Below, in pieces: positions 28,787 through 54,520 of a DNA stretch of 64,000 bases; within the stretch, counting starts at the first letter, position 1, and every line of letters begins with the position of its first letter. A program made the position numbers and the translations under genes. The notes under the pieces were generated by a model. The model did no database searches and had not been told where the DNA came from. It saw only the letters and a list, made by a program, of their open reading frames with translations. The DNA comes from Candidatus Poribacteria bacterium (GTDB taxonomy: Bacteria > Poribacteria > WGA-4E > PCPOR2b). The stretch is from NCBI GenBank assembly GCA_022826645.1, contig JAJDUM010000117.1, positions 585-64,584 of the forward strand, in the 5' to 3' direction.

Positions 28787-30640
28787 TTAGTCTGCCGTGG
28801 CTCCGGCAGGGACCGGCTCCCCCTCACCGTGCTCCGATTCACCGTTCGGCTGCGTCTGCGGAATCCAATCCGCTTCAGCGTCGGGAACACTGTACTCATA
28901 GGGGCCGTGATATACGTGCGGAATCGCATCGAAATTGCCGTGAGGCACAGGTGTTGGCGCATGCCATTCGAGAGTTGTCGCTTCCCAGGGATTCTGTTCA
29001 GCGACTTTCCCGCGGAATATACTCCAGAACACATTGATTAGCAGTAGAATCTGAGCCGCACCCAAAATAAATGCACAGACTGTAATAAACACATTTATCG
29101 GTTGCATCGGTTGTAAGAATTCGTACTGCATCGGGTTAGCGATACGTCGCATGTGTCCCCCAACACCGAGGATGTGCATCGGGAAAAAGACACCGTTAAA
29201 AGCGAGGAATGAGATCCAGAAATGGATCTTGCCAAGGGTCGCATTCATGTGTCGTCCATACATTTTGGGGAACCAGTGGAAAATGCCACCAAAGATAGCG
29301 AAGACGCTCCCGCCAAAGACAACATAATGGATATGCGCCACAATGTAGTATGTATCGTGGATGTAGATGTCTACCGGCGAGTTTGCCATATAGATACCGC
29401 TGAGACCGCCAATGACAAACATCGAGATAAAAGCGAGTACGTTTAGCATCGGCACAGTGAATCGGATCGACGCACGGTGCAGGGTACCGAGCCAATTAAA
29501 GGTTTTGATTGCCGAAGGAACGGCAATTAACATGGTAGTAGTCATGAAGCTTGCCCCGAGTGCAGGGTTCATCCCACTCTGGAACATGTGGTGTCCCCAT
29601 ACAATCCAACTGAGAAAGGCGATTGCTATCATAGCAAAAACCATTGACTTATATCCGAAGACCGGCTTTCTGGCAAAGACAGGGAGCATTTCGGATGCCA
29701 TACCCATGCCGGGCAGAATGAGGATATACACCTCTGGATGTGCAAAGAACCAGAAGAGATGCTGCCATAGTAACGGTTCGCCACCACCTGCCGCAGCAAA
29801 GAACGAAGTTCCTGCCATCCGGTCAAAGAGGATCAGCGCGAGCGCGGAAGCGACAACAGGGAATGCGAGCAGTAGAAGAATTGCCACGATAAAGAGCGCC
29901 CAAATCGCAAGCGGGAGACGGAACCAGGTCATGCCCGGTGCACGCATGTTGATAATCGTAGTAATATAGTTGATAGATCCCATCAGCGATGAGATCCCCA
30001 TGACGATAAGGCTGATGCACCAGAGATTCTGTCCCCAATCCACGCCGCTATACTCAGCGATTGAGGAGAGTGGGGCGTACCCAGTCCAACCTGCTGCAGC
30101 GTGCCCACCGGGGACAAAGAATCCAGCCATCATGATAATAGTTCCCAGTATATTGGACCAGAAGGAGAGCATATTCAGGACAGGGAAAGCCATATCCCTG
30201 GTCCCGATCATCAGTGGGATGAGGAAATTACCAAACGCACCAACCAACAAGGGAACAACGACGAAGAAGACCATGATGGTGGCATGCATTGTGAACAGTG
30301 AATTGAAAAACGCTGGGTCTATCACGCCGCTGGGCATGTTAGTCTCTAACCACGTTTCTTTATCGTCATCGAACCGTTCTTCCCACTTTCGGTCTGCCGC
30401 GGTTGTAACCTCGCCTTCCTCCTGATATGCTTTGGAGACCCCAATAATAGGGAGAGGCTTGTCGGGCCAAGCAAGTTGCCAACGGAAAAGCATCGCAAGC
30501 CCGCCCCCGACCATGAACATAATCAGACCAAAGATCAGGAACTGCTTACCGATCATTTTATGATCAAGCGAAAAGATGTATTTACTAACAAAACTCTCTT
30601 CATGATGATGATCATGAGATTCATGTGCGTGATCATTCAT
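28787..30640 (-). CDS. ctaD: Cytochrome c oxidase subunit I, A1 type
   Basis: FTMHAT, HPEVY, WGHHM, AHIHY; D-channel DMAFPVLN; K-channel AIKTF. Confidence 0.97.
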   Translation of the reverse strand: MNDHAHESHDHHHEESFVSKYIFSLDHKMIGKQFLIFGLIMFMVGGGLAMLFRWQLAWPDKPLPIIGVSKAYQEEGEVTTAADRKWEERFDDDKETWLETNMPSGVIDPAFFNSLFTMHATIMVFFVVVPLLVGAFGNFLIPLMIGTRDMAFPVLNMLSFWSNILGTIIMMAGFFVPGGHAAAGWTGYAPLSSIAEYSGVDWGQNLWCISLIVMGISSLMGSINYITTIINMRAPGMTWFRLPLAIWALFIVAILLLLAFPVVASALALILFDRMAGTSFFAAAGGGEPLLWQHLFWFFAHPEVYILILPGMGMASEMLPVFARKPVFGYKSMVFAMIAIAFLSWIVWGHHMFQSGMNPALGASFMTTTMLIAVPSAIKTFNWLGTLHRASIRFTVPMLNVLAFISMFVIGGLSGIYMANSPVDIYIHDTYYIVAHIHYVVFGGSVFAIFGGIFHWFPKMYGRHMNATLGKIHFWISFLAFNGVFFPMHILGVGGHMRRIANPMQYEFLQPMQPINVFITVCAFILGAAQILLLINVFWSIFRGKVAEQNPWEATTLEWHAPTPVPHGNFDAIPHVYHGPYEYSVPDAEADWIPQTQPNGESEHGEGEPVPAGATAD

Positions 30641-30664
30641 TCTATATCGACTCCTTTCTTTCGA

Positions 30665-31345
30665 TTATTCTGTCCATCTTTCATTTTTCCATGCTTCGTA
30701 ATCTTCAGCCGTGTGGACGGTGAGGTATCCGAGCATCCCGGAGTGTCCAAAACCACAGAGCTCAGCGCAGGGGATTTCATACGTGCCCGGTTTCGTTGCT
30801 TCAAACCACATGTTTATAAACCTACCGGGAAGGGCATCCTGCTTGAGTCTAAGCTGAGGGACAAAGAAGCTATGAATAACATCATCGGCCGTGAGCCTGA
30901 TATGCACGACCTCATTGACGGGGACGTGCAGTTGGTTCTCAAGCTGTAGGTCATCGTCGGTGCCCCATTCGCCATCGGGTCCCGGGTAGGTCATGTCCCA
31001 GTTAAATTGTTTCCCGTTCACCTGAACGACGGCACCGGGGTTGCCGGGAAACTGTGAAGGGAACTTAATTCTGTTCCATTGGGGCAAACTCAACATCGCG
31101 AGTGCGAACACAATGACGGTGGTAGCAGCAGTCCATACGATTTCAAGGGTTGTGCTGCCTTCAATGTATTCCGCCTTGCGGCCTTCTTGGAAACGATACT
31201 TAACGATGAAAACAATGAGTACTGCCATAACAGCCAGAAATACAATTGACGTAACCCAGTAGATTAGAACAAAGAGGTTATCCACCCCTTGTCCAAAAGT
31301 TGAGACATTCTCTGGAAGCCATGCAGGAAAATTCAGCCACTTCAT
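30665..31345 (-). CDS. ctaC: Cytochrome c oxidase subunit II (CuA), no fused cytochrome c
   Basis: DVIHSF and CAELCGFGHSGM; start ATG 31345 with AAAGGAG RBS. Confidence 0.95.
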   Translation of the reverse strand: MKWLNFPAWLPENVSTFGQGVDNLFVLIYWVTSIVFLAVMAVLIVFIVKYRFQEGRKAEYIEGSTTLEIVWTAATTVIVFALAMLSLPQWNRIKFPSQFPGNPGAVVQVNGKQFNWDMTYPGPDGEWGTDDDLQLENQLHVPVNEVVHIRLTADDVIHSFFVPQLRLKQDALPGRFINMWFEATKPGTYEIPCAELCGFGHSGMLGYLTVHTAEDYEAWKNERWTE

Positions 31346-31389
31346 TAAGAGCTCCTTTCTAGACTGCTGAATTTGTAGGTCAATCTCTT

Positions 31390-32184
31390 TTACGCTGCAT
31401 TCGGACGGCGATGTGCGGTTAGAGCAGCGCCCAAATATGTTACAACACAGAACAAGCCAGTAACGAGCAGCGATAACGTGAGTTGAGGAATCTCCTGAGA
31501 GATCGTGGATGCGTTGAAATACAAACAACGACGCAAGGCTGCAATTCCGTAGGTGAGTGGGTTCAATTTCATCGTCCACTCAAGCAATATCGGCACACCA
31601 GACACGGGGAAAAAGGCACCGGAGAGCAGCCAGATAGGGATGAGGATAAGATTCATAATCGCATGGAAACCTTGTGTTGAATCCATGCGCCATGCGATAA
31701 TTAGTCCTAAGTTTGTCAGACCAAAGGCCAAGGTCAACATCACACCGAGTGTTGAGACCACAGAAAAAGGACTCAGCGGCACACCCACCATCGGTGCGAG
31801 AAACAGTAAGAGGGTTCCCTGAAAGAGTGCCAAAGTTGTACCGCCAAGTGCTTGTCCCAGCACAAGAACGGATCGTGAAACTGGTGCGACAAGCACACCT
31901 TGTAGAAAACCTTCTCGACGGTCTTGGACGATCGAGATTGTTGCGAAAATTGTTGTAAACAGTAGCGCAAGCGTGATGATACCGGGGTAAAAATATTCTA
32001 TGTAGCTCGTTCCCTCAGGAACACCGGGAGGATTGAATGAAGCGTTTAATCCACCTCCCAAAAGCAGCCAAAAAATTAGCGGCTGACTGATCGCGCTGAC
32101 TAGACGACTCCGTTGGCGCAGGAACCGGATAATTTCACGCCACCAAATTGTCGCCACAGGGAGTAAAAATCTTGCTATTAACAA
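31390..32184 (-). CDS. ABC-2 type transporter permease
   Basis: REIIRFLRQRSR, DRREGFLQGVLVAPV, LSGAFFP, NPLTY. Confidence 0.9.
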   Translation of the reverse strand: MLIARFLLPVATIWWREIIRFLRQRSRLVSAISQPLIFWLLLGGGLNASFNPPGVPEGTSYIEYFYPGIITLALLFTTIFATISIVQDRREGFLQGVLVAPVSRSVLVLGQALGGTTLALFQGTLLLFLAPMVGVPLSPFSVVSTLGVMLTLAFGLTNLGLIIAWRMDSTQGFHAIMNLILIPIWLLSGAFFPVSGVPILLEWTMKLNPLTYGIAALRRCLYFNASTISQEIPQLTLSLLVTGLFCVVTYLGAALTAHRRPNAA

Positions 32185-35610: not shown

Positions 35611-36393
35611 TTATTTTAGCGCGAGTGTAAAGTCTTGGGTAACCGTTCCTCCGGCTTCAACAGTCACTGAAACAGGTTCGGCTTTATTTGTACCACAGGC
35701 TTCTTGCCAATACGCCAACTTATAGGTTCCCGGTGGGACATTCTCAAGCGTATATTTCCCATTCTCGTCGGTAACCGCAAAATAGGGATGGGGGATATAC
35801 GCGATCCAAGCTTTCATCCACCCGTGCACATCGCATTTAACGGCCACGGGTCCTTCCGCTTTCTTTACTGCCTTAACATTCATCTTACGCCTGGTTCCCG
35901 GCTGCGATTTATTAAATGCGGGATTCATCGAGCTAAAGATGTGGACATTATGATTGATTCTGTCGGGGTTGATCATGGTCAATCGTTTTCCAACCGGCAG
36001 GAGGCGCACGTGTGGATTAAAATGGCATCCTTTCTGGTCAATTTCGTATTTAGCATCGCTTGGAAAATCCGCTCCTGATGAGATGTCGGTTAGATAAACG
36101 ATGGTGTTTTTCAAACCATTTCCTTCGCCAAGGACAATTGATTCATCAAACTTGTCAGTCTTACCACACACTTGCACATCTTTGGTAATTTCCAGCTTTT
36201 TCATCTCAGGCGCGGTGCCATCAAATTTTACCATCCCGCTGATAGTACCACCGTTAGAAACACTCATTGCTTTATAGGAAGCCGGGAAGACCAGAGATTC
36301 GACCTCTTCGTTTCCACCGGCAGCAGCGGCTGTGGTAACGTAAACACATGCAATGAGCAGGGTCAGGATTGTAACAACTTTGGTTTTCATCAT
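35611..36393 (-). CDS. Secreted cupredoxin-like / carboxypeptidase-regulatory-like domain protein
   Basis: Signal peptide, DQKGCHFNPH, HNVH, KCDVHGWM, HPYFAVTDENGKY. Confidence 0.75.
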   Translation of the reverse strand: MMKTKVVTILTLLIACVYVTTAAAAGGNEEVESLVFPASYKAMSVSNGGTISGMVKFDGTAPEMKKLEITKDVQVCGKTDKFDESIVLGEGNGLKNTIVYLTDISSGADFPSDAKYEIDQKGCHFNPHVRLLPVGKRLTMINPDRINHNVHIFSSMNPAFNKSQPGTRRKMNVKAVKKAEGPVAVKCDVHGWMKAWIAYIPHPYFAVTDENGKYTLENVPPGTYKLAYWQEACGTNKAEPVSVTVEAGGTVTQDFTLALK

Positions 36394-36552
36394 TGAACTC
36401 CTTTTGAAATTATTGTTGAAACAGGTTATAAGTGAGAGGAACCATATCTGATTGCTTCAAATGCAGTCAAGACATTTGAACCTTCTTCCTATAAGAGAAA
36501 TTTTCTCTTTTTTTATGATTTACCTCTCATTTGTTGCAGTTGAACAGTATTC

Positions 36553-38307
36553 TTATGTATCTTGTCGTCTCCTGACGCTACTTTTCAAACCGAAAAGGAG
36601 GCCAACAGAAATAAGGGCAATCAGTGGTGGATAGACAAATCGTTTGTTTGATGGAACAGGATCGAGGACAAATGTGTACCACGTTGAAATCGCTCGTTTT
36701 GTGTTCACATCACCGTTCGCGCCATCCCATGCGGAGAAAGCGATGGGTATGAACACACCAGGGGCAAACTGCACGTCATTTCTTTTATCCTCGGTTATGA
36801 GCGACCTTTTTACCCATAGTTGATATTGTCCATCTTTGTACACACCTTCAGCCTGTATCGGACTTTGGTCAGACTGGACGGTCGCTGTATTGATTCCCTT
36901 CGCATTCATCTCTGTAACCGTTGACGGCTCGGCGACCTTCCAACTCCAGAGATAAACGGGACGACGATCACCATAGATAAAGTAGGGTTTCGGATCTGTT
37001 GGACCCTCAGAAATTTTCACCGGAAATTGAATTGCTAAAGCATCTTCAACCGTTTCTCCGGTCTCGTCATCTGCCTGAGGCAGCGTTTTAGTTCGATCAT
37101 CCCATGCGAAGAGGAACGCGATTTCGCTATCGTTATAGAATGACTTCGCCATTACCGAATCGATTGAAGGATTGAACTGCCGGGGATCAATCACAATCTG
37201 ACCGACCAGTGGAAAATAACTGGCTTCTTTAATTTCGTTCCAAGCTTCATCGTTCATACCCGGCAACGTACCTTCCCGATATTGTGACCGTAGCACTTTG
37301 TCACCGACCGCCGCTTGTGGTCGCTCTTCAGGTCCTAAAGATTTTACATAATTTGCCAGATGCCAGCTTTTCTCAAAAATTGGCTTTAGGGCTGTATCCA
37401 GTTTAGTCTGTTCTTCTGGAGTGAGTTCCACGCCTTCCTCAACGTTGAGCATGATGTCCTCAAACATAAACAACTTTTCCTCAAGCCCCGCGTATTCTTC
37501 CTCTTCCGCTTCTGAAAGACCCTCGCCATCCATTTTGAGTTCTAGCTCATTCATACGCGCCGATTCCTCATCCGTCAGACCGAGCCGGAAACTTGAGATG
37601 AACGAGGGCATCGGCGAGCCAGCGATACCGCCGATGAATCGCTTGAAGATATCCTCAGTTGTAGAGCCGCCGCGATAATTCCACTGCTCCCATAGATTGG
37701 CGGGCCATGTGCGAAAGCCCCACTCATCCGTAAGATCTGGGGCAGACGTGCCATCACCTCTGCCAACTACTCCGTGACAATCAACACATCCAAGATTGGT
37801 GTAAAATTCTTTCCCTTTTGTAACACTTTCTTCAGAGTACGGCACTTTGTCCGACACATCAATTAACCGTGGTGAAGCATCTTCAAAGCCATCGTAGAAT
37901 GTTTTGATATGGGCAACGAGTTGCCACTGCTCATTCTCCGTCAGGATTTCGCCCCAAGCTGGCATCGAGGAGCCCGGCATACCATTGGATATGATATCGA
38001 AGATATCTTGATCAGTGGGCAGTTGAGCACTTTCTGTTGAACGAATTTTGTAGAGGCCCCGCGTGAAATCTCTCGGTCTTGGCAACAGGTTTTCGGCTGC
38101 AGATCCGTCGCCTGCCCCGTCTACACCGTGGCAATGCGCACACTTATCTTCATACAGCACCTTTCCTTCTTCCGAAGCGGCGGGTGCCTGCTTCCCTTGA
38201 GCAAGAACTGGAATTGGAAAAACCGCTAACAACAAAATAAGACCGGCGACTGAAATCAACATTGTATTATAAGATTGCTTTTTCATTGTTTTTTCCTTCC
38301 GCTCCAA
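36553..38307 (-). CDS. Diheme cytochrome c fused to an ethylbenzene-dehydrogenase-gamma (DOMON-like) domain, C-terminal TM
   Basis: CAHCH, CVDCH, PRPRDFT, MPGSSMP; WDD, DALAIQFP, IAFSAWDG. Confidence 0.82.
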   Translation of the reverse strand: MERKEKTMKKQSYNTMLISVAGLILLLAVFPIPVLAQGKQAPAASEEGKVLYEDKCAHCHGVDGAGDGSAAENLLPRPRDFTRGLYKIRSTESAQLPTDQDIFDIISNGMPGSSMPAWGEILTENEQWQLVAHIKTFYDGFEDASPRLIDVSDKVPYSEESVTKGKEFYTNLGCVDCHGVVGRGDGTSAPDLTDEWGFRTWPANLWEQWNYRGGSTTEDIFKRFIGGIAGSPMPSFISSFRLGLTDEESARMNELELKMDGEGLSEAEEEEYAGLEEKLFMFEDIMLNVEEGVELTPEEQTKLDTALKPIFEKSWHLANYVKSLGPEERPQAAVGDKVLRSQYREGTLPGMNDEAWNEIKEASYFPLVGQIVIDPRQFNPSIDSVMAKSFYNDSEIAFLFAWDDRTKTLPQADDETGETVEDALAIQFPVKISEGPTDPKPYFIYGDRRPVYLWSWKVAEPSTVTEMNAKGINTATVQSDQSPIQAEGVYKDGQYQLWVKRSLITEDKRNDVQFAPGVFIPIAFSAWDGANGDVNTKRAISTWYTFVLDPVPSNKRFVYPPLIALISVGLLFGLKSSVRRRQDT

Positions 38308-38309
38308 TC

Positions 38310-39089
38310 TTAATGCGCTGCCTCACCAAACGTCCTCGGTCGATACCCTGTGTACTCAGATAAAAAGAGGATGACATCCCAAATTTCCTCCTCTGTCAGG
38401 TGATCCTCCCAGACCGGCATGGCAGAATCCCACGGGGTGGCGGCTGGTGGCAAACCGGGACCGCCTTTACTGATACGCCAAAAGAAGAAAGATTCTTGAT
38501 AGTTCGGAATGATCCCAGGATCTTGGAAATTTGCAGGCGGCGGGTTGAAGCCGTGCGCGAAATGCCCCTCTCCGTCGAGGTCATCACCGTGGCAATAAAA
38601 GCAGTTCTGATAATAGACGCGACGTCCGTTATCTACATGTGCCTTGAATGCTTCCGTGTCATCCTTTTCGAGATGCCGGAAGGGATTTTCCACCTCTTGC
38701 GTGAGACCAATAACCTTATCACGGTACTCCAATTCAGTGGGAGGCGCGGGGTGAGCAGTCCGCAATACGGCTGGTGGATCTGCTTTTGTCGACAACCTAG
38801 AAAAGCTTAAACCAAGCATAACCAAAGGAATAAGGACAAACAACACAGTACGCCTTGTCCGCCTATCATCATCAGCCAAGGTCTCCTTGACGGGACGCAG
38901 AAATTCTCGAAACCTATCATCTTCGACGGATACGTGGACTAATATCGCCAATAGAATAAGCCCCAGATACATTGAGATCACGCTGGCAGGTAACGGCACA
39001 GACCACACACTACCGATGAAGAATCTTAAAAAGAGCCAAAGCACTACAAATATGATTAGGCATTTTGTGAAGAGGGATAATCTTTGCAT
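38310..39089 (-). CDS. Membrane-anchored monoheme cytochrome c
   Basis: Three N-terminal TMs, CFYCH, SAMP. Confidence 0.85.
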   Translation of the reverse strand: MQRLSLFTKCLIIFVVLWLFLRFFIGSVWSVPLPASVISMYLGLILLAILVHVSVEDDRFREFLRPVKETLADDDRRTRRTVLFVLIPLVMLGLSFSRLSTKADPPAVLRTAHPAPPTELEYRDKVIGLTQEVENPFRHLEKDDTEAFKAHVDNGRRVYYQNCFYCHGDDLDGEGHFAHGFNPPPANFQDPGIIPNYQESFFFWRISKGGPGLPPAATPWDSAMPVWEDHLTEEEIWDVILFLSEYTGYRPRTFGEAAH

Positions 39090-39105
39090 AGCGATTTAAC
39101 TTTCC

Positions 39106-40608
39106 TTATTCGGCGGTTTCCTCTGCTCCTTCAGGCGCGGTTACATCTGTCGTGCCCGTTAGGCTTAATAGATACGCAAGCAAATCGCTCATATCCGAAA
39201 CCGATAGTAACAGCGGGAAGTTACTCGGCATCGGAGAAGTAACAACCAGCCGCTTACCAAAAGCGCGACTGTAGGTCGGTCCTTCGTCGATATCGAATGT
39301 ATCGATGATCTGCTCCTCGCCATCAACAATTAAGATGATTTCGTCCTCATTTTCCGACACCAACTCCCCGACAATAACATTCTCATCGAAGTCAGTCAGC
39401 GTCGCCTGAACCTTCACATTCGACTTGGAAATAATTTGGTCTTCTCCACCCACCTGAAGCGTAATGTTTTCGTCGTCCTCTCCTACAAGGTCTCCACTCA
39501 CGGTGGTTCCCGTATCAGCAAGCACTACTTGGATCCAGAAGTATCCTTCCCCTGTCAGATCTGTCAGCTCTTCGATCGGCTCCGGATCGAGTTCGCTCAG
39601 TAGAATGGTGCGCTCTTCTTCGTTGCCGGCTGCGTCCTTAACGCGCACGTCGATCTTCTCATTGTCTTGCGTAACAAGCGTCCCCTGAATCGTAGCACCG
39701 CCGGTTTTCACCGTAACGGAACCGTATCCGCTCACAATTTGCGCGTTCGGCAATAGGACGGACTCTTCGATATACCGGGGCTGGTTCAACGCAGCGATAT
39801 CCGTCAAGTCAGGCGCGGCGACAACTTCAACGCCATCATCAAGTGTTTGCCCAGCAGGTTGCTCGATGCCAGCAACAGCGTGACAGGCGATGCACTTTGC
39901 GCCTTCTACGAAAACTCTTTCGCCACGTGCAACGTCGCCGGTGAGGAGCGGGGGCAGTTCCTCTACTACAGCTGCTGCACTTCCAATATCGACGGGGGGC
40001 TCGAACGGGGTCAGATCGACCTCTCCTCCTTGACTCTGGAGGAAGGCGATAACCGTTTCGATTTCCAACTCGGTTAAACTGATAGGTGGCTTCCAAACGG
40101 GAGGCATGATGTTCCCGTAACCGGCGACGAGGAATTTATGGGGTTCATAGGCGGATTCAATGAGGTATTCTTTTGCTGTCAGCCCCGGCTGGCGTGTTGC
40201 AGCACGAGTGCCAACATCTGTTAAATCGGGACAGCGACCTGGTGGCGCAGACGTATCGAGCGTGTGACAGGTGTTACATTTCCCTTTTCCGTTAAAGATC
40301 GCTTCTCCAGCCTCAATAAACGCATCCGGTGTCCGCTCTATACTCGAGAGGTCCACCGTTGCAGTCGATGTTTCGGGAACAATGCTAGCGGCAAATGCAT
40401 AAAACCAGATGACCATCAACGAAAATGACAGGAGTTTGACTACACTCTGCCAAAGTATAATATTCGCCAAAGCGAAGATAAAAAACCATGTCGACCACGG
40501 CAGCAGGTTTTCCGAAGCAATCGGGAAAGCCGGCGCTTTCGCGATGTAGAGGATAAAACTTACAACCATTAAAATTAAGGCTACAATTCTAATTAGTTTT
40601 CTTTGCAT
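39106..40608 (-). CDS. Membrane-anchored diheme cytochrome c with acidic beta repeats
   Basis: N-terminal TMs; CNTCH with IMP; CIACH with SPMP. Confidence 0.85.
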   Translation of the reverse strand: MQRKLIRIVALILMVVSFILYIAKAPAFPIASENLLPWSTWFFIFALANIILWQSVVKLLSFSLMVIWFYAFAASIVPETSTATVDLSSIERTPDAFIEAGEAIFNGKGKCNTCHTLDTSAPPGRCPDLTDVGTRAATRQPGLTAKEYLIESAYEPHKFLVAGYGNIMPPVWKPPISLTELEIETVIAFLQSQGGEVDLTPFEPPVDIGSAAAVVEELPPLLTGDVARGERVFVEGAKCIACHAVAGIEQPAGQTLDDGVEVVAAPDLTDIAALNQPRYIEESVLLPNAQIVSGYGSVTVKTGGATIQGTLVTQDNEKIDVRVKDAAGNEEERTILLSELDPEPIEELTDLTGEGYFWIQVVLADTGTTVSGDLVGEDDENITLQVGGEDQIISKSNVKVQATLTDFDENVIVGELVSENEDEIILIVDGEEQIIDTFDIDEGPTYSRAFGKRLVVTSPMPSNFPLLLSVSDMSDLLAYLLSLTGTTDVTAPEGAEETAE

Positions 40609-40635
40609 CGGTCTCGTCCTAACTGTGTTTGATTG

Positions 40636-42453
40636 TTAATCATCCCCTGTGGTGGCTTCTGCCTCAATAGACGGCTGCTGCTCTTTTTTCTTGTCGCCCC
40701 ACAAACCGAGCCAGAAAATAAAGCCTACCAAAGCGAAGAAAATTACCATAATAACAGAAATCATGTTAACAGCATCAGCAAGCAAAGGGGTGTGCGCATC
40801 CGGAGAGGTGTCAGGCATTACACCAAAAATATGCCACGCCTCTCGAAGTCCCGACCGGGCGTAGCCCATCAATCCCATGAGTGAGGTGAAGGTAATGGCG
40901 AGTAGAATCAACACATATTGGGACCGGTCTGTCATCTGTCCCCAGCTGATTTCGCTTGAGCGCATCGCTTTCCGATACATAATCAGATCGATTATCGTTA
41001 CCAAAATCATGACAGCTAATGCGATTATGACCTGTATCGGCGTCAGCACGTTGACGCGAAAATCGCTAGCGACTTTGAATCCTGCAATACCGATGGTGAC
41101 AATTGCTGCGACAGCCAGTCCAACAATAGCTGCGATGACGATGTTACCCACTTTGCTCCAACCCACTGTCGGCGTTTTACCGGATCGTCGGTAAAAGAGA
41201 AAACTAAGAAACGTGGTCAAGATAATGAGATTGACAACCGTATTTTTCGCCGTCATCAAGCCGAAAAGTCCAACGAGCGGGTGATTTGGTCCTCCTATTG
41301 CAGCCAACTCCGTGGGCGACATAATCAATGTGCGCGGCGTCATCCAGACCGCGACAGATAGAACGATGATAGCGATCATGTAGGGACGATAGCGAGCGTA
41401 CCTCTCCCCGCCGGCGATGCGGGTCATGCCTGACCAGAGATAGTAATTCGCTCCGATAAACAGGACACCGATCATCACCGCCTGAATGATGAACAACCAC
41501 GAGAAGAGACTCCCCATCATGTTAATGCCCATCGTGTTATTGAACATATAGATTTCTCGTCCCAACCAGTATCCGGCGAAGGGAAGCGGAATCAGTCCAC
41601 ACAGCGCGATAAAGTTGCCCGTATATCCCATCCAGTCGTAATGCGCTTTATCCTCCCGCGTCTTAGCGGCAAGGAAACGAAAGGCGGAATAAGCACCGAC
41701 GATTGCACCGCCGAACGCTATATTCCCAATGAGCCGATGGATATTGACAGGCATCCATGTATAGTTATTGACTGCCTGCCACAGGGTTCCGATGAATGCA
41801 CCCGACTCATCATGGAGTGGAATTGGCTCGTGGTCGGATCCCATAATCGCTGGACTTGTCTGGTAAGTCAGCCACGAGTTAGAAACGAACATAATCGCTG
41901 TACCGAACACATTCAGGAGCACACCGAGAAATAGGTGCCACATTTTCGACACCCTGCCCTGCATCCGATCCCACCCGTAAGAATAGAGATAGAGCGTAAA
42001 GGTCTCTCCGAAAAACAGGATGACGTAGAAAATCATCGTTGGGCCGAAGATTCCTGACAGTTTGTTCATTACCTTCGGGTAGCACCAGATGAGGATAAAA
42101 ACAAGTACCCCACCCATCAGGGCGGTCGTCGAAAACGCGCCCATGCATAGCTTGATGAACTCCTGTGCCATCTTATCATACCGTTTGTCCTTCGTTTTCA
42201 TCCCGACAAACTCAATGACAACTGCGAACATCGGAACACCCAAGATGAAGGAACCGAACAATAGATGCAATTGAGCAGCGATCCACGCGGCGTTGCGGCT
42301 GCCGATCCCTGGGAAGGGACGGTACTCTGTGTCGGTCACATCTTGGGCAAAGACAGTCACAACTGTCAACAACAGATACATGACAAGCAGACCGAACAAA
42401 AGATATAATCTGTTTTTGGATCCGTTCATACTGGAATGTTTGGTGAGATACAT
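40636..42453 (-). CDS. Cytochrome bd-like oxidase subunit I (CydA superfamily, non-quinol type)
   Basis: QLHLLFGSFILGVP, FFGETFTLYLY.YGW, HLFLG...NSWL..P, NIHRLIGN, GYARSGLREAWH; no Q-loop motif. Confidence 0.8.
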   Translation of the reverse strand: MYLTKHSSMNGSKNRLYLLFGLLVMYLLLTVVTVFAQDVTDTEYRPFPGIGSRNAAWIAAQLHLLFGSFILGVPMFAVVIEFVGMKTKDKRYDKMAQEFIKLCMGAFSTTALMGGVLVFILIWCYPKVMNKLSGIFGPTMIFYVILFFGETFTLYLYSYGWDRMQGRVSKMWHLFLGVLLNVFGTAIMFVSNSWLTYQTSPAIMGSDHEPIPLHDESGAFIGTLWQAVNNYTWMPVNIHRLIGNIAFGGAIVGAYSAFRFLAAKTREDKAHYDWMGYTGNFIALCGLIPLPFAGYWLGREIYMFNNTMGINMMGSLFSWLFIIQAVMIGVLFIGANYYLWSGMTRIAGGERYARYRPYMIAIIVLSVAVWMTPRTLIMSPTELAAIGGPNHPLVGLFGLMTAKNTVVNLIILTTFLSFLFYRRSGKTPTVGWSKVGNIVIAAIVGLAVAAIVTIGIAGFKVASDFRVNVLTPIQVIIALAVMILVTIIDLIMYRKAMRSSEISWGQMTDRSQYVLILLAITFTSLMGLMGYARSGLREAWHIFGVMPDTSPDAHTPLLADAVNMISVIMVIFFALVGFIFWLGLWGDKKKEQQPSIEAEATTGDD

Positions 42454-42609
42454 TTTTTCTCTGTTACTCCAGACTTAATATCAAGACTTATGTCAAAAGC
42501 AAGCGTCACACATTAAGGACCTAAAACGTGATGCGTAAAACATAAAAACAACTTGTTCATCGGTGTCTGGTCTACGGAGTTCATGCAAAAAAAAGTGCAA
42601 AACGTTAAG

Positions 42610-42643
42610 AGAAACCGAGTTTTGAAGAAAAAACTCGGTTTCT
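42610..42643. repeat. REP-like palindrome or terminator
   Basis: AGAAACCGAGTTTT-gaagaa-AAAACTCGGTTTCT; the same arms recur at 46815-46913. Confidence 0.6.
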
Positions 42644-42655
42644 GTGTCGGCGATG

Positions 42656-43405
42656 TTACTTCTTCTTAAAATCGGCACTTGTAAAGTTGATTTCAACATC
42701 TCCGTCCGCAACTTCGACAACTTGGGCTTTTGTCGTTCCAAGTTCCTCGTGCCACGCTTGGACGCGGTACTTACCGGCGGGGACATCTTTAATCATGTAA
42801 GTCCCCGTATCGTTTGAACCTTCGTAAGCGTCGGAGCTGATCCATTTGCCATCTTTGTCTTTGTAGCCTGTCACAGCGTAATAGTCATTGTCTGTAACAA
42901 AGATATAGCCTGTCATCCAGTTGTGGATATCGCAGGTGAACTTGATCGCTTCACGTTTTTCGAGTTTCAGAGGTAACTTTTTACCGGGCCCCGGTATTTG
43001 CCAGTTCGGAGCCTCGTTTTTTGTGGCATGGGAATGGACGTTATGCGCAACTGGATCGCTGGAGGTCACATCTACTGTGGTCCCTGCGGTTACAACAAGG
43101 ACATGCGGGTAATACATGCAGTCAACCTGATCCATGACTGGATTTTTGGCAGGGATTGTTGGCTCCGCGCCGCGTGCCCGCAAGTAAACAACAACGTTTT
43201 TAATTCCTTTGCCTTTGGACACCACAAGGGCTTCAGATTTACCATTTTTTAGGGAATCAACACAGTGTTGGTCTTTGGTTGCACTCAGTGCTGGGCGTGC
43301 TGGTGCAGCTCCATCATACATCACGGTTCCGCTGATTGCACCGGCATATACCATGCTCGTGATTAATATAAAGCTGAGTGCGGTCAGAGTTATTGTAGTT
43401 TTCAT
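42656..43405 (-). CDS. Secreted cupredoxin-like / carboxypeptidase-regulatory-like protein, paralog of 35611-36393
   Basis: DQVDCMYYPH, HNVH, TCDIHNWM, AWHEELG. Confidence 0.75.
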   Translation of the reverse strand: MKTTITLTALSFILITSMVYAGAISGTVMYDGAAPARPALSATKDQHCVDSLKNGKSEALVVSKGKGIKNVVVYLRARGAEPTIPAKNPVMDQVDCMYYPHVLVVTAGTTVDVTSSDPVAHNVHSHATKNEAPNWQIPGPGKKLPLKLEKREAIKFTCDIHNWMTGYIFVTDNDYYAVTGYKDKDGKWISSDAYEGSNDTGTYMIKDVPAGKYRVQAWHEELGTTKAQVVEVADGDVEINFTSADFKKK

Positions 43406-49492: not shown

Positions 49493-52400
49493 TCACTCGC
49501 CCAACGAGTTGAGGTAATCTCTCACCAGCCGGATCTGTTCTTCGGCATCGTCGACCCCAAAGCCGTCAACAGGTTGATGTACGCCACCAATCTTGGGCCA
49601 TGCTTGCGGCATTGCAGTTCCCGGTTGGAAGGATTGTGGATCTTTGAGCCAGTCAATGACCCAGTCAGCTTTGAGACGACTCTTTGCCAGTGCAAGGTCG
49701 GGGCGGCCTGTTTTATCGCTGCCCGGTGGGATAACTTCACCTTGTTCCGGATGACAGGAGATACACTGGAGCACGTCAAAAATCCGCTTTCCGACACGGA
49801 GTTCCCTTTGAGACGATGGCTGTAATGCAATGGTCTCATAGGGGAACACCTCATCGTCAAGTGCGGAGAAGTATTTTACAAGTGCAGTCGCTTCCTCGTC
49901 TGAGAAGCCGAAAGTCGGCATCCGGACTTCAAGCCCGTAGCGGATAGGGGTTGGTGTTTTGAGGAACTCGAACAACCAATCTGGATAAACCTTGGCACCT
50001 TGCGCTTGCAAAGTAGGTGGGGCAAAGCGCTTGGCATTCAGCATGTCCAAGTCTTGGTTAGCAGCGACCACATTTACGAAATCGCCGCCTTTCCCTTCAA
50101 TGTCATGGCATCCGGTACAGTTGTATTTTTTCGCTAACCGGCGCCCAGCATCGATTTGCCGCGTCTTCTCGCTCGGTTGATGGATGTAGCTCACCGGGTA
50201 TTTTGTAGGTTGGAAACTCTTGAGTAGAACAGCAAGGGCGCGCGCCTCCTCGTCACCGATGGTGTGTTCGCTAAAGACAGGCATTCGGGAGACGATGCGG
50301 CGTGTTTGGTAGCGCCTGGGGTTGGTTACTTTGCCGACCGTCCAACCGTGCCAGCTGTGTTCAACATCTGCCGTATCTCCGAAGTCCAATTCATCAACGG
50401 TTTTGGCCCCAAATTCACCGAGATCCGCACCGACCTTTGATTCATTCTCAAAGCCGGGGATACTATGACACCCAAAGCAACCGTACGTGCGAACCAGCTT
50501 TTCGCCTTCCATTGGATCCACCGCTGCGTGCGGGTTTTCGTTGCCGGCAATAGGAGATGGTGTTGTCTCTTGCAGCGACATTAGATAGGCTACTGCATTG
50601 CTCACCTCAGTCTTAGTAAGACGTAGACTGGGCATAACGGTGTCGGGGTCGTAAGCTCTTGGATCGCTGATCCATTGGCGTAGGAATTGTGGTGTGAGTT
50701 TGCTGCCGACACCATCCAATGTTGGGGCGAAATCACTTCCGAGCCCGTCAACAGTATGACATGACAGACAGCCAACTGATTTTACAACCTGCTCACCTGC
50801 GGCAATTGTACGGGGCGCTGTTGAGTATGAGGCATCGCCTTGATCTATTGCCGGGTCTTTCATCTGCGCCAAGTATGCGGCAATTGATTTCACTTCATCA
50901 ACAACGCGGTCAACGGCAGTGTCAGGATAAGGATACTTCGTGCCGTCGTCCTTTTGGAGGATAATGCCGGTGTCGGTTTTGGTGACGATGCCGTAGTGCT
51001 TATTTCCATTTTTGAGGTACACCGCTTGGGTCAACTTTTCGACGGGGAAGAAATCTGGCATCTTGGTCTCTGGCAGATAGGCGGTCGGCTGTTTAATCCA
51101 CCCTTCCAACCAATCAACGCTGTTAACTTTACTGCCGATTTTGGCGAGCGACGGGCCAACTTTGTCGAGGTCTGCTAACACCGAATATCCCTCAACAGCA
51201 TGACAGCCGTGACACCCGACATCTTCAAATAGCGCCATCCCCTTCGAGAGGACAGGCGAATAATCTTGGAGCTGCCCGGTCTCCGGATTGACGGCATCCA
51301 ACATCATCACGCCATCGTGGCAGCGACGACAGTTGGACTCCATATAGCCGTGTAATTCTTCTGAGACTTTACCGGTGTGTTCATCCAACCCCAAGACAGG
51401 CGTCAGCCAAAATTCTTTCTTGTGGTCTAGAGCGTGTGCGGCTATTTCAGTTAGCCCTTGTCCCTGCCCACCGTGGCAGGGGGTGCATCCAAATCTTTCA
51501 CCGGGGTGTTTACCGAGCAGCACATCCCGGTGAGGATGCGTCCGAAGCACGGGATCGTATCCAGTCTCATAAGCGATTTCGACGAGGTCGGCATAAACAT
51601 CCGGATCGGTAAAGGTCAACTTGCCATCTTCGCTTAACTCATAACTACCCTCTTCGGCATCTTCCTCATCAATAAACACCGTCTCACTCCCCGTTTTAAT
51701 GTAGGGATGTTTTAGTTGGAGCGTAAGGTTGTTTTCGCCGTCCCCTTCAATCTCCTCAAACTGCTCTTTAGCATATCCGTCGTATCCCGCTTTATCCGAA
51801 GCGAAGTGACAGGTGGCGCATCGGTCTGCCGTATAATCAAAATCTTCAATGTAGTACTGCACAACTGTACGTGTCTTTGTGAAGGGGCTTTCCGCCAATG
51901 TGCCGATGAAAGTGCGCTTAATGCCGCCAACGGAATGGAGTTTCGCCTCAAGTCTATCGACCTCCGCGTATTTCGCTTTATCTGCTTTCGCAGCCTCGAT
52001 TTTCGCCTGAAGTTCACCAATCTTTGCAGCAGATTTGGTATCTGCTGCATTGTATTTTCGGACTAGGAGATATTCGGCTAAAGCTGCCTCAACGTGTCCG
52101 TTGGCGTCATAAACCTCGGCGAGGTCTTTATAGGCATCGGCGAGGTTCCGTTGTGCTGCGAGCACTGCATCGGTCAGTCCTCCCTCAATCCGGCTTTCAA
52201 ACTCATCTAATTTCTTTTTCCATTTTTCGGCTCCCTCTTTGTCGCCGTGGTGTAGCGCATACTGATACTTATAGTTGACTGCATCCGACTCACTCTGGTC
52301 AAATTTACGTTCCTGCAAGGCTTCTTCCAGTTTTATCTGTAACCCTGCAATTGTACCTCTTAGCGTTTTCTCCTGTTTAGGGTCAATCTCTTGAGGCGCT

Positions 52401-52618: not shown

Positions 52619-52675
52619 GATTCCTATTGACTCCTTACTGTTTGAATGGACGAATTACATATTATCCAATACGCC

Positions 52676-53542: not shown

Positions 53543-53583
53543 ATATCACCTCACTGAAAATAGGTATTGAAATGAATTCAGTT

Positions 53584-54357: not shown

Positions 54358-54520
54358 AGCAACGACTCAGCCTACCTCGCTTCAGCATAACCAAGGCTGT
54401 ATAGCTCCTTTCTTGCTCAATTCAAGTTTACCATCAAGACTGTACCAAGGAAGTATAATTTAATTGGATAGGGCATAACAACGGTCAGGAGAGAATGTAA
54501 TTGATGAGTTTGCCACTTCA

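What the first reader, a model, noticed from the sequence alone, without database searches (positions are those of the whole stretch)
35611..43405. Non-canonical bd-like oxidase module: one CydA-like subunit, no CydB, three membrane c cytochromes and two cupredoxin-like proteins
Seen: the 605-aa subunit keeps His residues equivalent to the b595 and b558 ligands. It lacks the Q-loop K..E quinol motif and has GYARSGLREAWH where CydA has E.GRQPW. No cydB or second cydA is in the window. Downstream genes supply five c hemes. Established: bd-superfamily branches without quinol sites, thought to take electrons from cytochrome c, are described from genomes of Nitrospira and relatives (OR-N type) but, to my knowledge, remain biochemically uncharacterised. 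Inference: a cytochrome c-fed O2 (or NO) reductase of new composition in an organism whose neighbouring genes look heterotrophic.
Basis: partly seen in the sequence, partly recalled or inferred. Interest (0 to 1): 0.8.

Follow-up and report, generated by a model that had tools for sequence, protein, structure and literature searches.

The report
bd-like respiratory module in Poribacteria
A sponge-associated Poribacteria genome carries a six-gene membrane respiratory module built around a cytochrome bd-like protein without a quinol site; the module is already known from nitrite oxidisers and anammox bacteria, its chemistry has never been measured, and here it sits beside an ordinary cytochrome c oxidase.

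Summary
Six minus-strand genes (35611-43405) encode a 605-aa CydA-like protein, three membrane-anchored c cytochromes with 5 CxxCH in all, and two cupredoxins. The genome (94.4% complete) gave no CydB match and only this one CydA-family match.

The claim of "new composition" does not hold. The same parts list is described for the nxr clusters of Kuenenia, Nitrospira and Nitrospina, and for "TO_1" of Manganitrophaceae. That list is a 14-helix bd-like protein, mono- and dihaem c cytochromes, an NxrC-like domain and two cupredoxins. The 500-aa cytochrome is a homologue of Kustd1711, a solved dihaem protein of about +350 mV.

It is an OR-N-type module, so a new member of a known but biochemically untested kind.

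New here:
- The module occurs in 149 of 176 Poribacteria species genomes, and relatives occur in at least 597 species genomes of other phyla.
- No NXR-type enzyme was found in this genome.
- In 43 of 62 loci with enough flank, aa3-type cox genes follow the module on the same strand.
- Gene fusions and a controlled complex prediction place the 259-aa cytochrome c on the helices that replace the Q-loop.

Most likely function: a cytochrome c-fed O2 reductase working beside aa3 (confidence about 0.5). Main rival: an electron-input or connector complex for aa3.

The parts
42656..43405 (-). cup1: secreted cupredoxin (type-1 Cu ligand set H121, C158, H161, M164) with a C-terminal prealbumin-like (CarboxypepD_reg) domain. 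An upstream copy like this was found only in Poribacteria loci.
   Evidence: ORF. Pfam CarboxypepD_reg and Copper-bind are both sub-threshold. Ligand columns are invariant in 31 sequences. An upstream copy is seen in Poribacteria loci only.
42612..42641 (.). 30-nt palindromic hairpin just after the cup1 stop. It is one copy of a dispersed repeat and may act as a terminator between cup1 and the CydA-like gene.
   Evidence: Sequence. The genome holds 79 copies at up to 3 mismatches against 0 for the reversed control. Depth spikes here in all four runs laid.
40636..42453 (-). CydA-like (OR-N-type, bd-like) membrane subunit of 605 aa: an N-terminal signal or anchor helix plus 14 helices. Three helices (about 290-370) replace the Q-loop.
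   Evidence: Pfam PF01654 on the N-terminal half only. AlphaFold pLDDT 89.7, pTM 0.88. VIA-align Z 32-35, rmsd 3.3-4.0, 346-362 residues aligned, spanning the whole of 10 solved CydA chains. hhalign residue map.
39106..40608 (-). c500: membrane-anchored dihaem cytochrome c (C111xxCH, C239xxCH). It is a homologue of Kustd1711 of the Kuenenia nxr cluster, with a longer C-terminal beta-rich extension.
   Evidence: PDB 7ZS0 at E 9.7e-37, residues 55-352 against 4-293. Kustd1711 is a dihaem protein of about +350 mV (passages seen). Some relatives carry a cytochrome c domain like it fused to the C-terminus of the CydA-like protein (P0121, P0128, P0133).
38310..39089 (-). c259: monohaem cytochrome c with three N-terminal hydrophobic helices. 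It is the best-conserved partner and is predicted to dock on the inserted helices of the CydA-like subunit.
   Evidence: C163, C166, H167, M224, R110 and H113 are invariant in 19 sequences. Complex prediction scored 0.72 against a best control of 0.00. It is fused to c584 in Rokubacteria/NC10 loci L057, L058, L067 and L078.
36553..38307 (-). c584: signal peptide, dihaem cytochrome c domain (C56xxCH, C174xxCH), an EB_dh/NxrC-like domain (about 354-547) and a C-terminal membrane anchor.
   Evidence: Pfam Cytochrom_C and EB_dh at 62.2 bits against a cut-off of 33.3. PDB 6H5L chain B at E 3e-47 and Kuenenia NxrC 7B04_C at E 6.7e-9. The expected haem-b ligand positions are not conserved.
35611..36393 (-). 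cup2: cupredoxin (H148, C187, H190, M193) with a CarboxypepD_reg domain. The N-terminus reads LIAC, which looks like a lipobox. This is the copy shared with other phyla.
   Evidence: A downstream cupredoxin is present in 51 of 62 loci with at least 7.5 kb of flank.
28787..31579 (-). Linked neighbour: A-type haem-copper oxidase genes COX2 (30665-31579, CuA motif present, no cytochrome c domain) and COX1 (28787-30640). COX1 is the only COX1 match in the genome.
   Evidence: The same-strand downstream position is conserved in 43 of 62 loci.
49493..55018 (-). Linked neighbour upstream: Rieske protein (54521-55018), cytochrome b (53584-54357), a subunit IV-like protein (52676-53542) and a 1041-aa multihaem cytochrome c (49493-52618).
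   Evidence: The multihaem gene lies upstream of the module in 33 of 80 loci, all Poribacteria-type.

Best explanation
The six genes encode an OR-N-type "bd-like" respiratory membrane complex. It is the same module that sits in the nxr gene clusters of anammox bacteria, Nitrospira and Nitrospina, and that is called TO_1 in Manganitrophaceae.

Shown:
- The core subunit keeps the full nine-helix CydA fold.
- It keeps the residues equivalent to H19, E107 and H186.
- The Q-loop is replaced by three membrane helices, and there is no CydB.

Predicted with controls: the inserted helices carry the membrane anchor of a monohaem cytochrome c (c259).

Inferred:
- High-potential periplasmic carriers deliver single electrons to c259. 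The candidates are the Kustd1711-like dihaem c500, the dihaem c584, and possibly a cupredoxin. They would be fed by the Rieske/cytochrome b complex encoded upstream.
- c259 passes the electrons to the b558-type haem (H239, probably M400).
- They then reach the H63-ligated haem, where O2 is reduced.

On this reading the complex is a second, cytochrome c-oxidising terminal oxidase beside the aa3 oxidase. It may be the high-affinity branch, because neither a cbb3 oxidase nor a canonical bd oxidase was found in this genome.
For: Identity of the module:
- PF01654 covers the N-terminal half only.
- VIA-align gives Z 32-35 over the whole of 10 solved CydA chains, against Z 19-23 for the next family, ACIII.
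- hhalign pairs H63/H19, E150/E107 and H239/H186.
- The protein has no CxxCH motif, and the model has 14 helices after the N-terminal one.
- The genome has no CydB and no second CydA.
- c500 matches Kustd1711 at E 1e-36, a protein of about +350 mV encoded in the nxr cluster.
- c584 matches Kuenenia NxrC and a Kuenenia dihaem chain.
- The parts list equals those in Luecker 2013 and Yu 2021.

A real, selected unit:
- The order CydA-like, c500-like, c259, c584 is conserved in loci of at least 10 named phyla.
- The CydA-like protein was found in 149 of 176 Poribacteria species genomes.
- At least 597 stretches in the species-genome collection encode a relative.

Physical association:
- CydA-like fused to cytochrome c occurs in P0121, P0128 and P0133.
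- c259 fused to c584 occurs in 4 loci.
- The complex prediction scored 0.72, best of 3 controls 0.00. That mark was reached by 58 of 80 solved complexes and 2 of 110 mismatched pairs. The runs agree in at least 48% of contacts, and partner pLDDT is at least 77. The interface is CydA-like 333-394 with c259 25-60 and 104-112.

Oxidase rather than NXR accessory or complex III:
- No type II DMSO-reductase alpha subunit was found; the best match to TIGR03479 scored 59 bits against a cut-off of 985.
- This genome has two cytochrome b genes.
- Of 27 other module-bearing genomes, 27 have NrfD-family genes and 15 have cytochrome b, so none lacks a candidate complex III.
- This genome has one COX1 and no FixO or CydB.
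- The literature treats bd-like proteins as the cytochrome c oxidase of Nitrospirales, most of which lack haem-copper oxidases (passage seen).

Weak support: metatranscriptome assemblies X18 and X19, both from one study, hold contigs of a relative at about 90% identity across most of the module. DNA carry-over is not excluded.
Against: - No activity has been measured for any OR-N enzyme.
- The canonical E99 position is Tyr (Y143).
- The E445 (b595 ligand) position has no acidic equivalent in a weak, non-significant local alignment (E 0.015-0.03). The dihaem O2 site is therefore not canonical.
- cox genes follow the module on the same strand in 43 of 62 loci. Two terminal oxidases in one operon is less expected than a donor complex plus an oxidase.
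- All 14 tested genomes without adjacent cox genes still have COX1 elsewhere. The module was never seen as the only oxidase candidate.
- 111 of 176 Poribacteria genomes also have CydB, so there is no complementary distribution.
- The module also occurs in strictly anaerobic anammox bacteria.
- Nitrospirota-named sequences, the ones for which the oxidase role was proposed, fall in two separate deep clades and are only about 34-37% identical to this protein.
- The EB_dh-like domain lacks conserved residues at the expected haem-b ligand positions. Position 445 reads W 27, M 15, F 11, G 8, Y 5 of 74, and position 537 reads K 50, R 16 of 74. The ligand identities themselves are recalled.
Confidence: 0.5

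Rival explanations
1. Electron-input or connector complex for the aa3 oxidase. On this reading the bd-like subunit does not reduce O2. It would link the quinone pool, or the Rieske/cytochrome b complex, to the c cytochromes and cupredoxin that reduce CuA of the COX2 encoded downstream. That is the role of alternative complex III, or of a supercomplex adaptor. In nitrite oxidisers and anammox bacteria the same module would connect NXR with the quinone pool.
For: - COX2-COX1 follow the cupredoxin on the same strand in 43 of 62 loci with at least 7.5 kb of flank: Gemmatimonadota 9/9, Rokuibacteriota 3/3, Methylomirabilota 2/3, Chloroflexota 1/1, Poribacteria 25/29.
- In L049 successive genes abut or overlap by a few bases.
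- The window COX2 has a CuA site but no fused cytochrome c, so it needs an external one-electron donor.
- Cupredoxin and cox genes appear and disappear together across phyla.
- In Poribacteria the module lies between the complex III genes and the cox genes.
- E99 and E445 equivalents are missing.
- The model resembles the quinone-interacting ActC and ActF at Z 19-23.
- Luecker 2013 raised an ACIII-like role.
Against: - No quinol site is recognisable, and the Q-loop is absent.
- Every genome checked already has a candidate complex III.
- The four-gene core stands without cupredoxin or adjacent cox genes in 8 of 8 Acidobacteriota loci with enough flank.
- The similarity to CydA (Z 32-35) far exceeds that to ActC/ActF.
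- The H19 and E107 equivalents of the O2-reducing site are conserved in at least 90% of 57 sequences.
Confidence: 0.25
2. A cytochrome c-fed reductase of another acceptor, such as NO, nitrite-derived species or peroxide, or a detoxifying enzyme rather than an energy-conserving oxidase.
For: The module is present in anaerobic anammox bacteria beside NXR. The active-site residues are non-canonical. The Nitrospinota paper leaves open whether OR-N enzymes share the O2 and NO detoxification roles of canonical bd oxidases (passage seen).
Against: Nothing in the sequence points to a specific alternative substrate. No denitrification genes were seen in the parts of the window that I annotated. The near-universal presence in aerobic heterotrophic Poribacteria, next to the core respiratory genes, fits a main-chain role better.
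Confidence: 0.1
3. A canonical quinol-oxidising cytochrome bd oxidase whose cydB lies in the unassembled part of the genome.
For: The genome is 94.4% complete, so a gene could be missing. 8 of 19 same-genus genomes do have a CydB.
Against: - Only the first 200 or so residues align to CydA.
- The Q-loop is replaced by helices.
- E. coli CydA sits on a branch of length 10 away from the whole family.
- Only one PF01654 gene is in the genome, and it lies in a conserved operon with c cytochromes in 80 loci.
- 11 of 19 same-genus genomes, six of them single-contig assemblies, also gave no CydB match.
Confidence: 0.02

Closest known systems
bd-like oxidase module of the nxr gene clusters of Kuenenia stuttgartiensis, Nitrospira defluvii and Nitrospina gracilis (Luecker et al. 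2013, PMC3578206; Kustd1711 structure, PMC11791136)
   Same: The parts list is the same: a bd-like protein with 14 helices in which three helices replace the Q-loop, a mono- and a dihaem cytochrome c, an NxrC-like (EB_dh) domain and two cupredoxin-like proteins. c500 is a sequence homologue of Kustd1711 (E 1e-36). The EB_dh domain matches Kuenenia NxrC. A Nitrospinae-labelled protein, P0133, is 44-45% identical to the CydA-like protein.
   Different: No NXR or other type II DMSO-reductase alpha subunit was found in this genome. The neighbours are an aa3 oxidase and a Rieske/cytochrome b complex instead. The NxrC-like domain is fused to a dihaem cytochrome. The organism's other genes look heterotrophic.
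OR-N family, subfamilies N1/N2, of the cytochrome bd superfamily (Murali, Gennis and Hemp, bioRxiv 10.1101/2021.01.16.426971)
   Same: No quinol site, no haem c motif in CydA, 14 helices, an operon with alternative electron donors, and a single cydA-like gene as reported for OR-N2.
   Different: The subfamily could not be assigned, because the reference alignments and HMMs are in supplements that I could not see. Nitrospirota-named sequences form two other deep clades in my tree.
TO_1 terminal-oxidase cluster of Candidatus Manganitrophus (Yu et al., bioRxiv 10.1101/2021.11.15.468770)
   Same: A bd-like protein plus two cytochromes c plus a periplasmic EB_dh-type "cytochrome b". A Nitrospira/Manganitrophaceae-named protein (the P0143/P0271 cluster) aligns over its full length at 34% identity.
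   Different: It falls in a different clade. Here there are cupredoxins and adjacent cox genes. Haem-b ligation by the EB_dh domain is doubtful in this clade.
Canonical cytochrome bd quinol oxidase CydAB(X) (E. coli, Geobacillus, Mycobacterium structures)
   Same: The CydA fold (Z 32-35) and the H19, E107 and H186 equivalents.
   Different: No Q-loop, no CydB, five extra helices, and E99 replaced by Tyr. The electron donors are c cytochromes rather than quinol, which is an inference.
Alternative complex III with a downstream oxidase (act-cox clusters)
   Same: A multi-subunit membrane complex with membrane-anchored c cytochromes encoded directly upstream of cox genes. There is some fold resemblance to ActC and ActF (Z 19-23).
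   Different: This genome has no NrfD-family, ActB-like molybdopterin or FeS subunit in the module. The membrane core belongs to the CydA family.

Membership tests
Cytochrome bd superfamily (CydA fold) | Sequence match to Cyt_bd_oxida_I above the curated cut-off | tested here: met
   PF01654 at 68.6 bits against a cut-off of 26.2, N-terminal half only.
Cytochrome bd superfamily (CydA fold) | Nine-helix CydA architecture | tested here: met
   AlphaFold model with pLDDT 89.7. VIA-align Z 32-35, rmsd 3.3-4.0, 346-362 residues aligned, model 39-595 against the whole of 10 CydA chains.
Cytochrome bd superfamily (CydA fold) | His19 and His186 haem ligands | tested here: met
   H63 and H239 align to them. 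Both are at least 90% conserved in 57 sequences.
Cytochrome bd superfamily (CydA fold) | Met393 (b558) and Glu445 (b595) ligands | tested here: inconclusive
   Only weak local alignments (E 0.015-0.03) are available. They pair M393 with M400, R448 with R537 and W451 with W540, and they give no acidic residue at the E445 position.
Canonical quinol-oxidising bd oxidase (qOR) | Q-loop with the quinol-binding residues | tested here: not met
   No alignment exists beyond CydA residue 212. Model helices 290-370 occupy the place of the loop.
Canonical quinol-oxidising bd oxidase (qOR) | CydB partner subunit | tested here: not met
   0 matches to PF02322 in the 94.4%-complete genome. None lies in the operon.
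Canonical quinol-oxidising bd oxidase (qOR) | Both proton-channel glutamates (E99, E107) | tested here: not met
   The E99 position is Y143. The E107 position is E150.
OR-N (N1/N2) of Murali et al. | No quinol site and no CxxCH motif in the CydA-like subunit | tested here: met
OR-N (N1/N2) of Murali et al. | 14 transmembrane helices | tested here: met
   The model has 14 helices after the N-terminal signal or anchor helix. The family feature is quoted.
OR-N (N1/N2) of Murali et al. | Operon with alternative electron donors | tested here: met
   Three c cytochromes and two cupredoxins, with synteny in 80 loci.
OR-N (N1/N2) of Murali et al. | Placement with the authors' reference sequences or HMM classifier | not testable with these tools
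   The references are in supplements that I could not see. Indirect evidence only: the three nearest Atlas clusters are commonest in Nitrospirota, and named Nitrospirota and Nitrospinae relatives exist.
nxr-cluster bd-like module (Kuenenia, Nitrospira, Nitrospina) | Parts list: bd-like protein, mono- and dihaem c, NxrC-like domain, two cupredoxins | tested here: met
   against the description.
nxr-cluster bd-like module (Kuenenia, Nitrospira, Nitrospina) | Adjacent NxrAB | tested here: not met
   The best TIGR03479 match in the genome scored 59 bits against a cut-off of 985, and it lies on another contig.
EB_dh / NxrC haem-b subunit | Domain match | tested here: met
   PF09459 at 62.2 bits against a cut-off of 33.3, and TIGR03477 at E 2.7e-22, which is below its cut-off.
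EB_dh / NxrC haem-b subunit | Conserved Met/Lys haem-b ligands (identities recalled, taken from no call) | tested here: inconclusive
   The putative Met position 445 is variable, with Met in 15 of 74. Position 537 is K in 50 and R in 16 of 74.
Type-1 (blue) copper cupredoxin | Cupredoxin fold | tested here: met
   cup2 model with pLDDT 90.2. Foldseek gives amicyanin, pseudoazurin and plastocyanin at E 1e-4 to 1e-3 and TM up to 0.72.
Type-1 (blue) copper cupredoxin | His, Cys, His, Met ligand set | tested here: met
   H148, C187, H190 and M193 are invariant in 31 sequences. Copper binding itself was not tested.
Alternative complex III | NrfD-family ActC/ActF and ActB subunits | tested here: not met
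   The genome has no PF03916 match. No module protein matches these families.

The most novel reading that the evidence does not exclude
The bd-like core is not a stand-alone oxidase. It would be the membrane heart of a previously unrecognised, bd-derived electron-input or adaptor complex that works with A-type haem-copper oxidases in many heterotrophic phyla (Poribacteria, Gemmatimonadota, Rokubacteria/NC10, Chloroflexota, Latescibacterota). It may form a Rieske/b - module - aa3 supercomplex, with the cupredoxin as the donor to CuA. The same adaptor would have been recruited to NXR in nitrite oxidisers and anammox bacteria. That would make it a third type of "complex III-like" coupling device, derived from an oxygen reductase.
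Probability: 0.2. Interest if true: 0.8.

Novelty: new member of a known kind. Interest (0 to 1): 0.45.

Why it matters
bd-like (OR-N) complexes are proposed to be the main terminal oxidases of globally important nitrite oxidisers, yet none has been characterised biochemically.

This analysis shows three things:
- The same module is near-universal in Poribacteria, where it was found in 149 of 176 species genomes.
- It is common in Gemmatimonadota, Acidobacteriota, Rokubacteria and other heterotrophs, with no NXR-type enzyme found in this genome.
- In most lineages it is physically linked to aa3 oxidase genes.

Together this widens the question from "how do nitrite oxidisers respire" to "what does this widespread respiratory module do".

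It also points to more tractable organisms than Nitrospira or anammox bacteria for an experiment. It yields one concrete structural hypothesis to test: the helices that replaced the Q-loop dock a cytochrome c subunit.

Tried and rejected
- The first attempt to scan genome contigs with a 19-sequence alignment failed because it had no conserved stretch. A closer 11-sequence alignment worked.
- Subfamily assignment (OR-N1 or OR-N2) was not possible. The reference sets are in supplements I could not see. My tree (quick method, SH-aLRT only, E. coli outgroup on a branch of length 10, base unresolved) shows only that the window protein groups with Poribacteria and Latescibacterota, apart from two Nitrospirota-named clades.
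- No model coordinates were available, so I could not measure distances between conserved His residues or test the CuB-like site that I recall being proposed for Nide0901.
- A "missing complex III" argument for the ACIII-like reading was tested and failed.
- A complementary distribution with canonical bd oxidase was tested and failed. CydB is present in 111 of 176 Poribacteria genomes and in 0 of 24 genomes of the families in which the module is absent or rare (f3, f5-f11; the module occurs in 1 of these 24).
- The promoter and terminator scan was not clearly above shuffles: 17 against 12.2 +/- 3.2, and 15 against 9.7 +/- 3.7.
- The ABC-2 transporter between cup2 and COX2 resembles DrrAB or PedC-type exporters below their cut-offs. 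No copper-maturation (Nos-type) family appeared among the matches shown, which were the best 25 of 190 for the ATPase and all 10 for the permease.
- One Acidobacteriota locus (L059) showed no informative flanking enzyme.
- Paper search was badly posed: none of the 15 papers listed held "bd-like". It says nothing about whether the cox linkage is in print. I make no claim that it is unpublished.
This call repeats it with that field filled in.

Full report
WHAT IS THERE

Six minus-strand ORFs fill 35611-43405:
- cup1, 249 aa
- a 605-aa CydA-like protein
- c500, 500 aa with 2 CxxCH
- c259, 259 aa with 1 CxxCH and three N-terminal hydrophobic helices
- c584, 584 aa with 2 CxxCH, an EB_dh domain and a C-terminal anchor
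- cup2, 260 aa

The four central genes are separated by 27, 16 and 2 nt. cup1 and cup2 are set off by 202 and 159 nt.

Pfam finds Cyt_bd_oxida_I only on residues 53-301 of the 605-aa protein. It finds cytochrome c domains on the three cytochromes and EB_dh on c584. For the two end proteins it finds only sub-threshold Copper-bind or amicyanin signals plus a CarboxypepD_reg domain.

The organism is a Poribacteria MAG. The nearest proteins and loci carry that name. Its genome is 6.04 Mb in 127 contigs and 94.4% complete. It has this one PF01654 gene and no CydB.

THE CORE SUBUNIT

An AlphaFold model built on a 57-sequence alignment is confident (pLDDT 89.7, pTM 0.88). It shows an N-terminal signal or anchor helix followed by 14 helices.

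All ten Foldseek hits at E <= 0.001 are CydA chains. VIA-align gives Z 32-35 (rmsd 3.3-4.0, 346-362 residues aligned), spanning model residues 39-595 and the whole of each CydA chain. The next family is ACIII ActF/ActC at Z 19-23. The full CydA fold is therefore kept, with extra helices inserted.

A profile comparison with E. coli CydA aligns only residues 52-253. It pairs R53/R9, H63/H19, Y143/E99, E150/E107, H173/H126 and H239/H186. Three model helices (about 290-370) lie where the Q-loop would be.

Weak, non-significant local alignments pair M400 with M393, R537 with R448 and W540 with W451. They leave no acidic residue at E445.

Taken together, the b558-type site looks intact. The H19-type site is kept. 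The second haem of the canonical dihaem O2 site is uncertain.

THE PARTNERS

c500 matches the solved Kuenenia protein Kustd1711 (PDB 7ZS0) at E 9.7e-37 over residues 55-352. Passages of PMC11791136 describe Kustd1711 as a dihaem cytochrome c of the nxr gene cluster, with both haems near +350 mV and an Hfq-like "nose" domain.

The dihaem part of c584 matches chain B of 6H5L at E 3e-47, and its EB_dh part matches Kuenenia NxrC (7B04_C). A 2026 preprint cites 6H5L as the Kuenenia HAO structure (passage seen). That chain B is the dihaem partner of that enzyme is my recollection.

In 74 homologues of c584 the positions where I expect the EB_dh haem-b ligands are not conserved. The ligand identities, Met and Lys, are recalled. 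"Periplasmic cytochrome b" is therefore uncertain for this clade.

c259 is the most conserved partner. C163, C166, H167, M224 and an R110..H113-P-x-P-P motif are invariant in 19 sequences.

Both end proteins carry an invariant His/Cys/His/Met set. The cup2 model has a cupredoxin fold.

ARE THE PIECES ONE MACHINE?

Synteny. tblastn of the six proteins against 80 loci from named species genomes shows the order CydA-like, c500-like, c259, c584 in these named groups: Poribacteria, Latescibacterota, Acidobacteriota, Gemmatimonadota, Rokubacteria, NC10/Methylomirabilota, Chloroflexota, Myxococcota, Thermodesulfobacteriota and a Spirochaetaceae MAG. Part of the order is rearranged in the Myxococcota and Spirochaetaceae loci. 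A second, upstream cupredoxin occurs only in Poribacteria.

Fusions. Three database proteins join the CydA-like protein to a C-terminal cytochrome c domain resembling c500. Four Rokubacteria/NC10 loci join c259 and c584 into one protein with 3 CxxCH.

Complex prediction. A prediction of the CydA-like protein with c259 scored 0.72, against 0.00 for the best of 3 controls. That mark was reached by 58 of 80 solved complexes and 2 of 110 mismatched pairs. The runs agree in at least 48% of contacts, and partner pLDDT is at least 77. My own alignments were used, so those counts hold only roughly. The interface is CydA-like 333-394 (the inserted helices and the loop after them) with c259 25-60 and 104-112. 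This supports binding but does not show it.

COMPARISON WITH WHAT IS KNOWN

Murali et al. define OR-N as bd-superfamily enzymes without a quinol site, found in operons with alternative donors. OR-N1 and OR-N2 have 14 helices, and OR-N2 often stands without a second cydA (passages seen).

Luecker et al. 2013 list, for the nxr regions of Kuenenia, Nitrospira and Nitrospina, an alternative NxrC, one mono- and one dihaem cytochrome c, two cupredoxin-like proteins and a 14-helix bd-like oxidase in which three helices replace the Q-loop. They call its function enigmatic and name both a terminal-oxidase and an ACIII-like possibility (passage seen).

Yu et al. describe TO_1 of Manganitrophus as a bd-like protein, two cytochromes c and a periplasmic cytochrome b, expressed at the 98th percentile (passage seen).

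The 2024 Nitrospinota and 2025 Nitrospirales papers still treat OR-N as uncharacterised.

The window's module is therefore this known module, not a new composition.

In my tree the window protein groups with Poribacteria (SH-aLRT 100), and that group is sister to Latescibacterota (100). Nitrospirota-named proteins fall in two other deep clades. E. coli CydA is far outside. A Nitrospinae-labelled fusion protein is 44-45% identical to the window protein. Atlas look-alikes are clusters commonest in Nitrospirota.

WHAT IS DIFFERENT HERE

1. No NXR. The best match to the type II DMSO-reductase alpha model scores 59 bits against a cut-off of 985.

2. The window is a respiratory island. It holds:
   - a Rieske protein, cytochrome b, a subunit IV-like protein and a 1041-aa multihaem c upstream of the module;
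   - downstream of it an ABC-2 exporter, COX2 with a CuA motif, COX1 (the only one in the genome), CtaA, CtaB, two COX3 genes, SCO1, succinate dehydrogenase and fumarase.

3. The linkage to cox genes is conserved. Among 62 loci with at least 7.5 kb downstream, COX2 follows on the same strand in 43:
   - Poribacteria 25/29
   - Gemmatimonadota 9/9
   - Rokuibacteriota 3/3
   - Methylomirabilota 2/3
   - Chloroflexota 1/1
   - unlabelled 3/5
   - Latescibacterota 0/2 on the same strand, but 2/2 on the opposite strand
   - Acidobacteriota 0/8, Myxococcota 0/1, Spirochaetota 0/1

   A downstream cupredoxin is present in 51 of the 62, and it tracks the cox genes. In a Gemmatimonadales locus the genes run bd-like, c, c, c584-like, cupredoxin, COX2, COX1, COX4, with abutting or overlapping ends.

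4. The CydA-like protein is in 149 of 176 Poribacteria species genomes, and in 120 of 133 high-quality ones. It is concentrated in three families.

FUNCTION

For a cytochrome c-fed O2 reductase:
- the CydA fold is retained, with the H19, E107 and H186 equivalents;
- the quinol site is lost;
- a cytochrome c is docked where the Q-loop was;
- the carriers are high-potential;
- the oxidase role has been proposed for Nitrospirales, most of which lack haem-copper oxidases;
- this genome has one aa3 oxidase and no cbb3 marker or canonical bd;
- no checked genome lacks a complex III candidate, so the module is not needed as a complex III.

Against it, and for a donor or connector role towards aa3:
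- the operon-level linkage to cox genes;
- the co-variation of cupredoxin with cox genes;
- the non-canonical E99 and E445 positions;
- the module's presence in anaerobic anammox bacteria;
- all 14 genomes without adjacent cox genes still have COX1 elsewhere;
- no complementary distribution with CydB.

I put the oxidase reading at about 0.5, the connector reading at about 0.25 and another acceptor at about 0.1.

EXPRESSION

Two metatranscriptome assemblies from one study hold contigs of a relative at about 90% identity over most of the module. These are contigs from RNA libraries, and DNA carry-over is not excluded.

VERDICT

This is a new member of a known, still uncharacterised kind. Its value lies in the broad heterotrophic distribution, the cox linkage and a testable docking model.

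Noticed in passing
window 42612-42641 (intergenic, after the cup1 stop): A 30-nt AT-rich palindromic hairpin. It is a dispersed repeat with 79 copies at up to 3 mismatches in this genome and 0 for the reversed control. Depth is very high at this spot in all four sequencing runs laid. It looks like a REP-like or terminator element.
   Followed up: partly
window 32223-34652: A low-GC insert (GC 0.42 in the 32001-34000 bin of the composition profile). It holds an HTH protein, a D12-class N6-adenine DNA methyltransferase and two small ORFs of unknown function. It splits the ABC ATPase (34664-35596) from its ABC-2 permease (31390-32184). The methyltransferase is present in only 3 of 80 related loci (L005, L009, L034).
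   Followed up: partly
window 12874-14805; L049 5629-7626 and 4753-5226: A 643-aa protein combines universal-stress (Usp) domains, three PCP_red domains and a rubredoxin-like motif, and it lies in the respiratory island. A similar Usp + PCP_red protein lies just upstream of the bd-like module in a Gemmatimonadales locus. The function is unknown.
   Followed up: no
window 49493-55018: A Rieske/cytochrome b complex with split cytochrome b and a 1041-aa multihaem cytochrome c in place of a normal c1 or f subunit. In most Poribacteria loci it lies directly upstream of cup1. In this genus a DctA-type symporter and two periplasmic binding proteins (43684-49415) are inserted between them.
   Followed up: partly
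window 21976-22827 and 23818-24687: Two formylglycine-generating-enzyme (FGE-sulfatase) family genes sit among the cox, cta and SCO1 genes.
   Followed up: no
genome contig C111:7809-9146 (outside the window): A molybdopterin oxidoreductase reading frame of 919 aa with one in-frame TGA. It could be a selenocysteine-containing enzyme of the formate dehydrogenase type.
   Followed up: no
window 39106-39600 (C-terminal third of c500): The Poribacteria c500 is about 200 aa longer than its 260-290-aa counterparts in other phyla. The extension seems to repeat a beta-rich motif like the Hfq-like nose domain described for Kustd1711.
   Followed up: no
Poribacteria species genomes: Canonical CydB is variably present: 8 of 19 in the window's genus and 111 of 176 in the phylum. 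It co-exists with the bd-like module in many genomes. It is absent from this genome and from several complete single-contig relatives.
   Followed up: partly
model of window 40636-42453: The CydA-like model aligns to the NrfD-family subunits ActF and ActC of alternative complex III at Z 19-23 over about 311-324 residues, and to polysulfide reductase PsrC at Z 14.7. This suggests a shared helical architecture between the CydA and NrfD folds.
   Followed up: no
CydA-like H391-P392 and c259 H113-P114: Two conserved His-Pro motifs, one on each subunit, lie in or beside the predicted interface of the two proteins (c259 residues 104-109 and 112, core residues 391-394). They could bind a cofactor at the interface. 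This is speculation.
   Followed up: no
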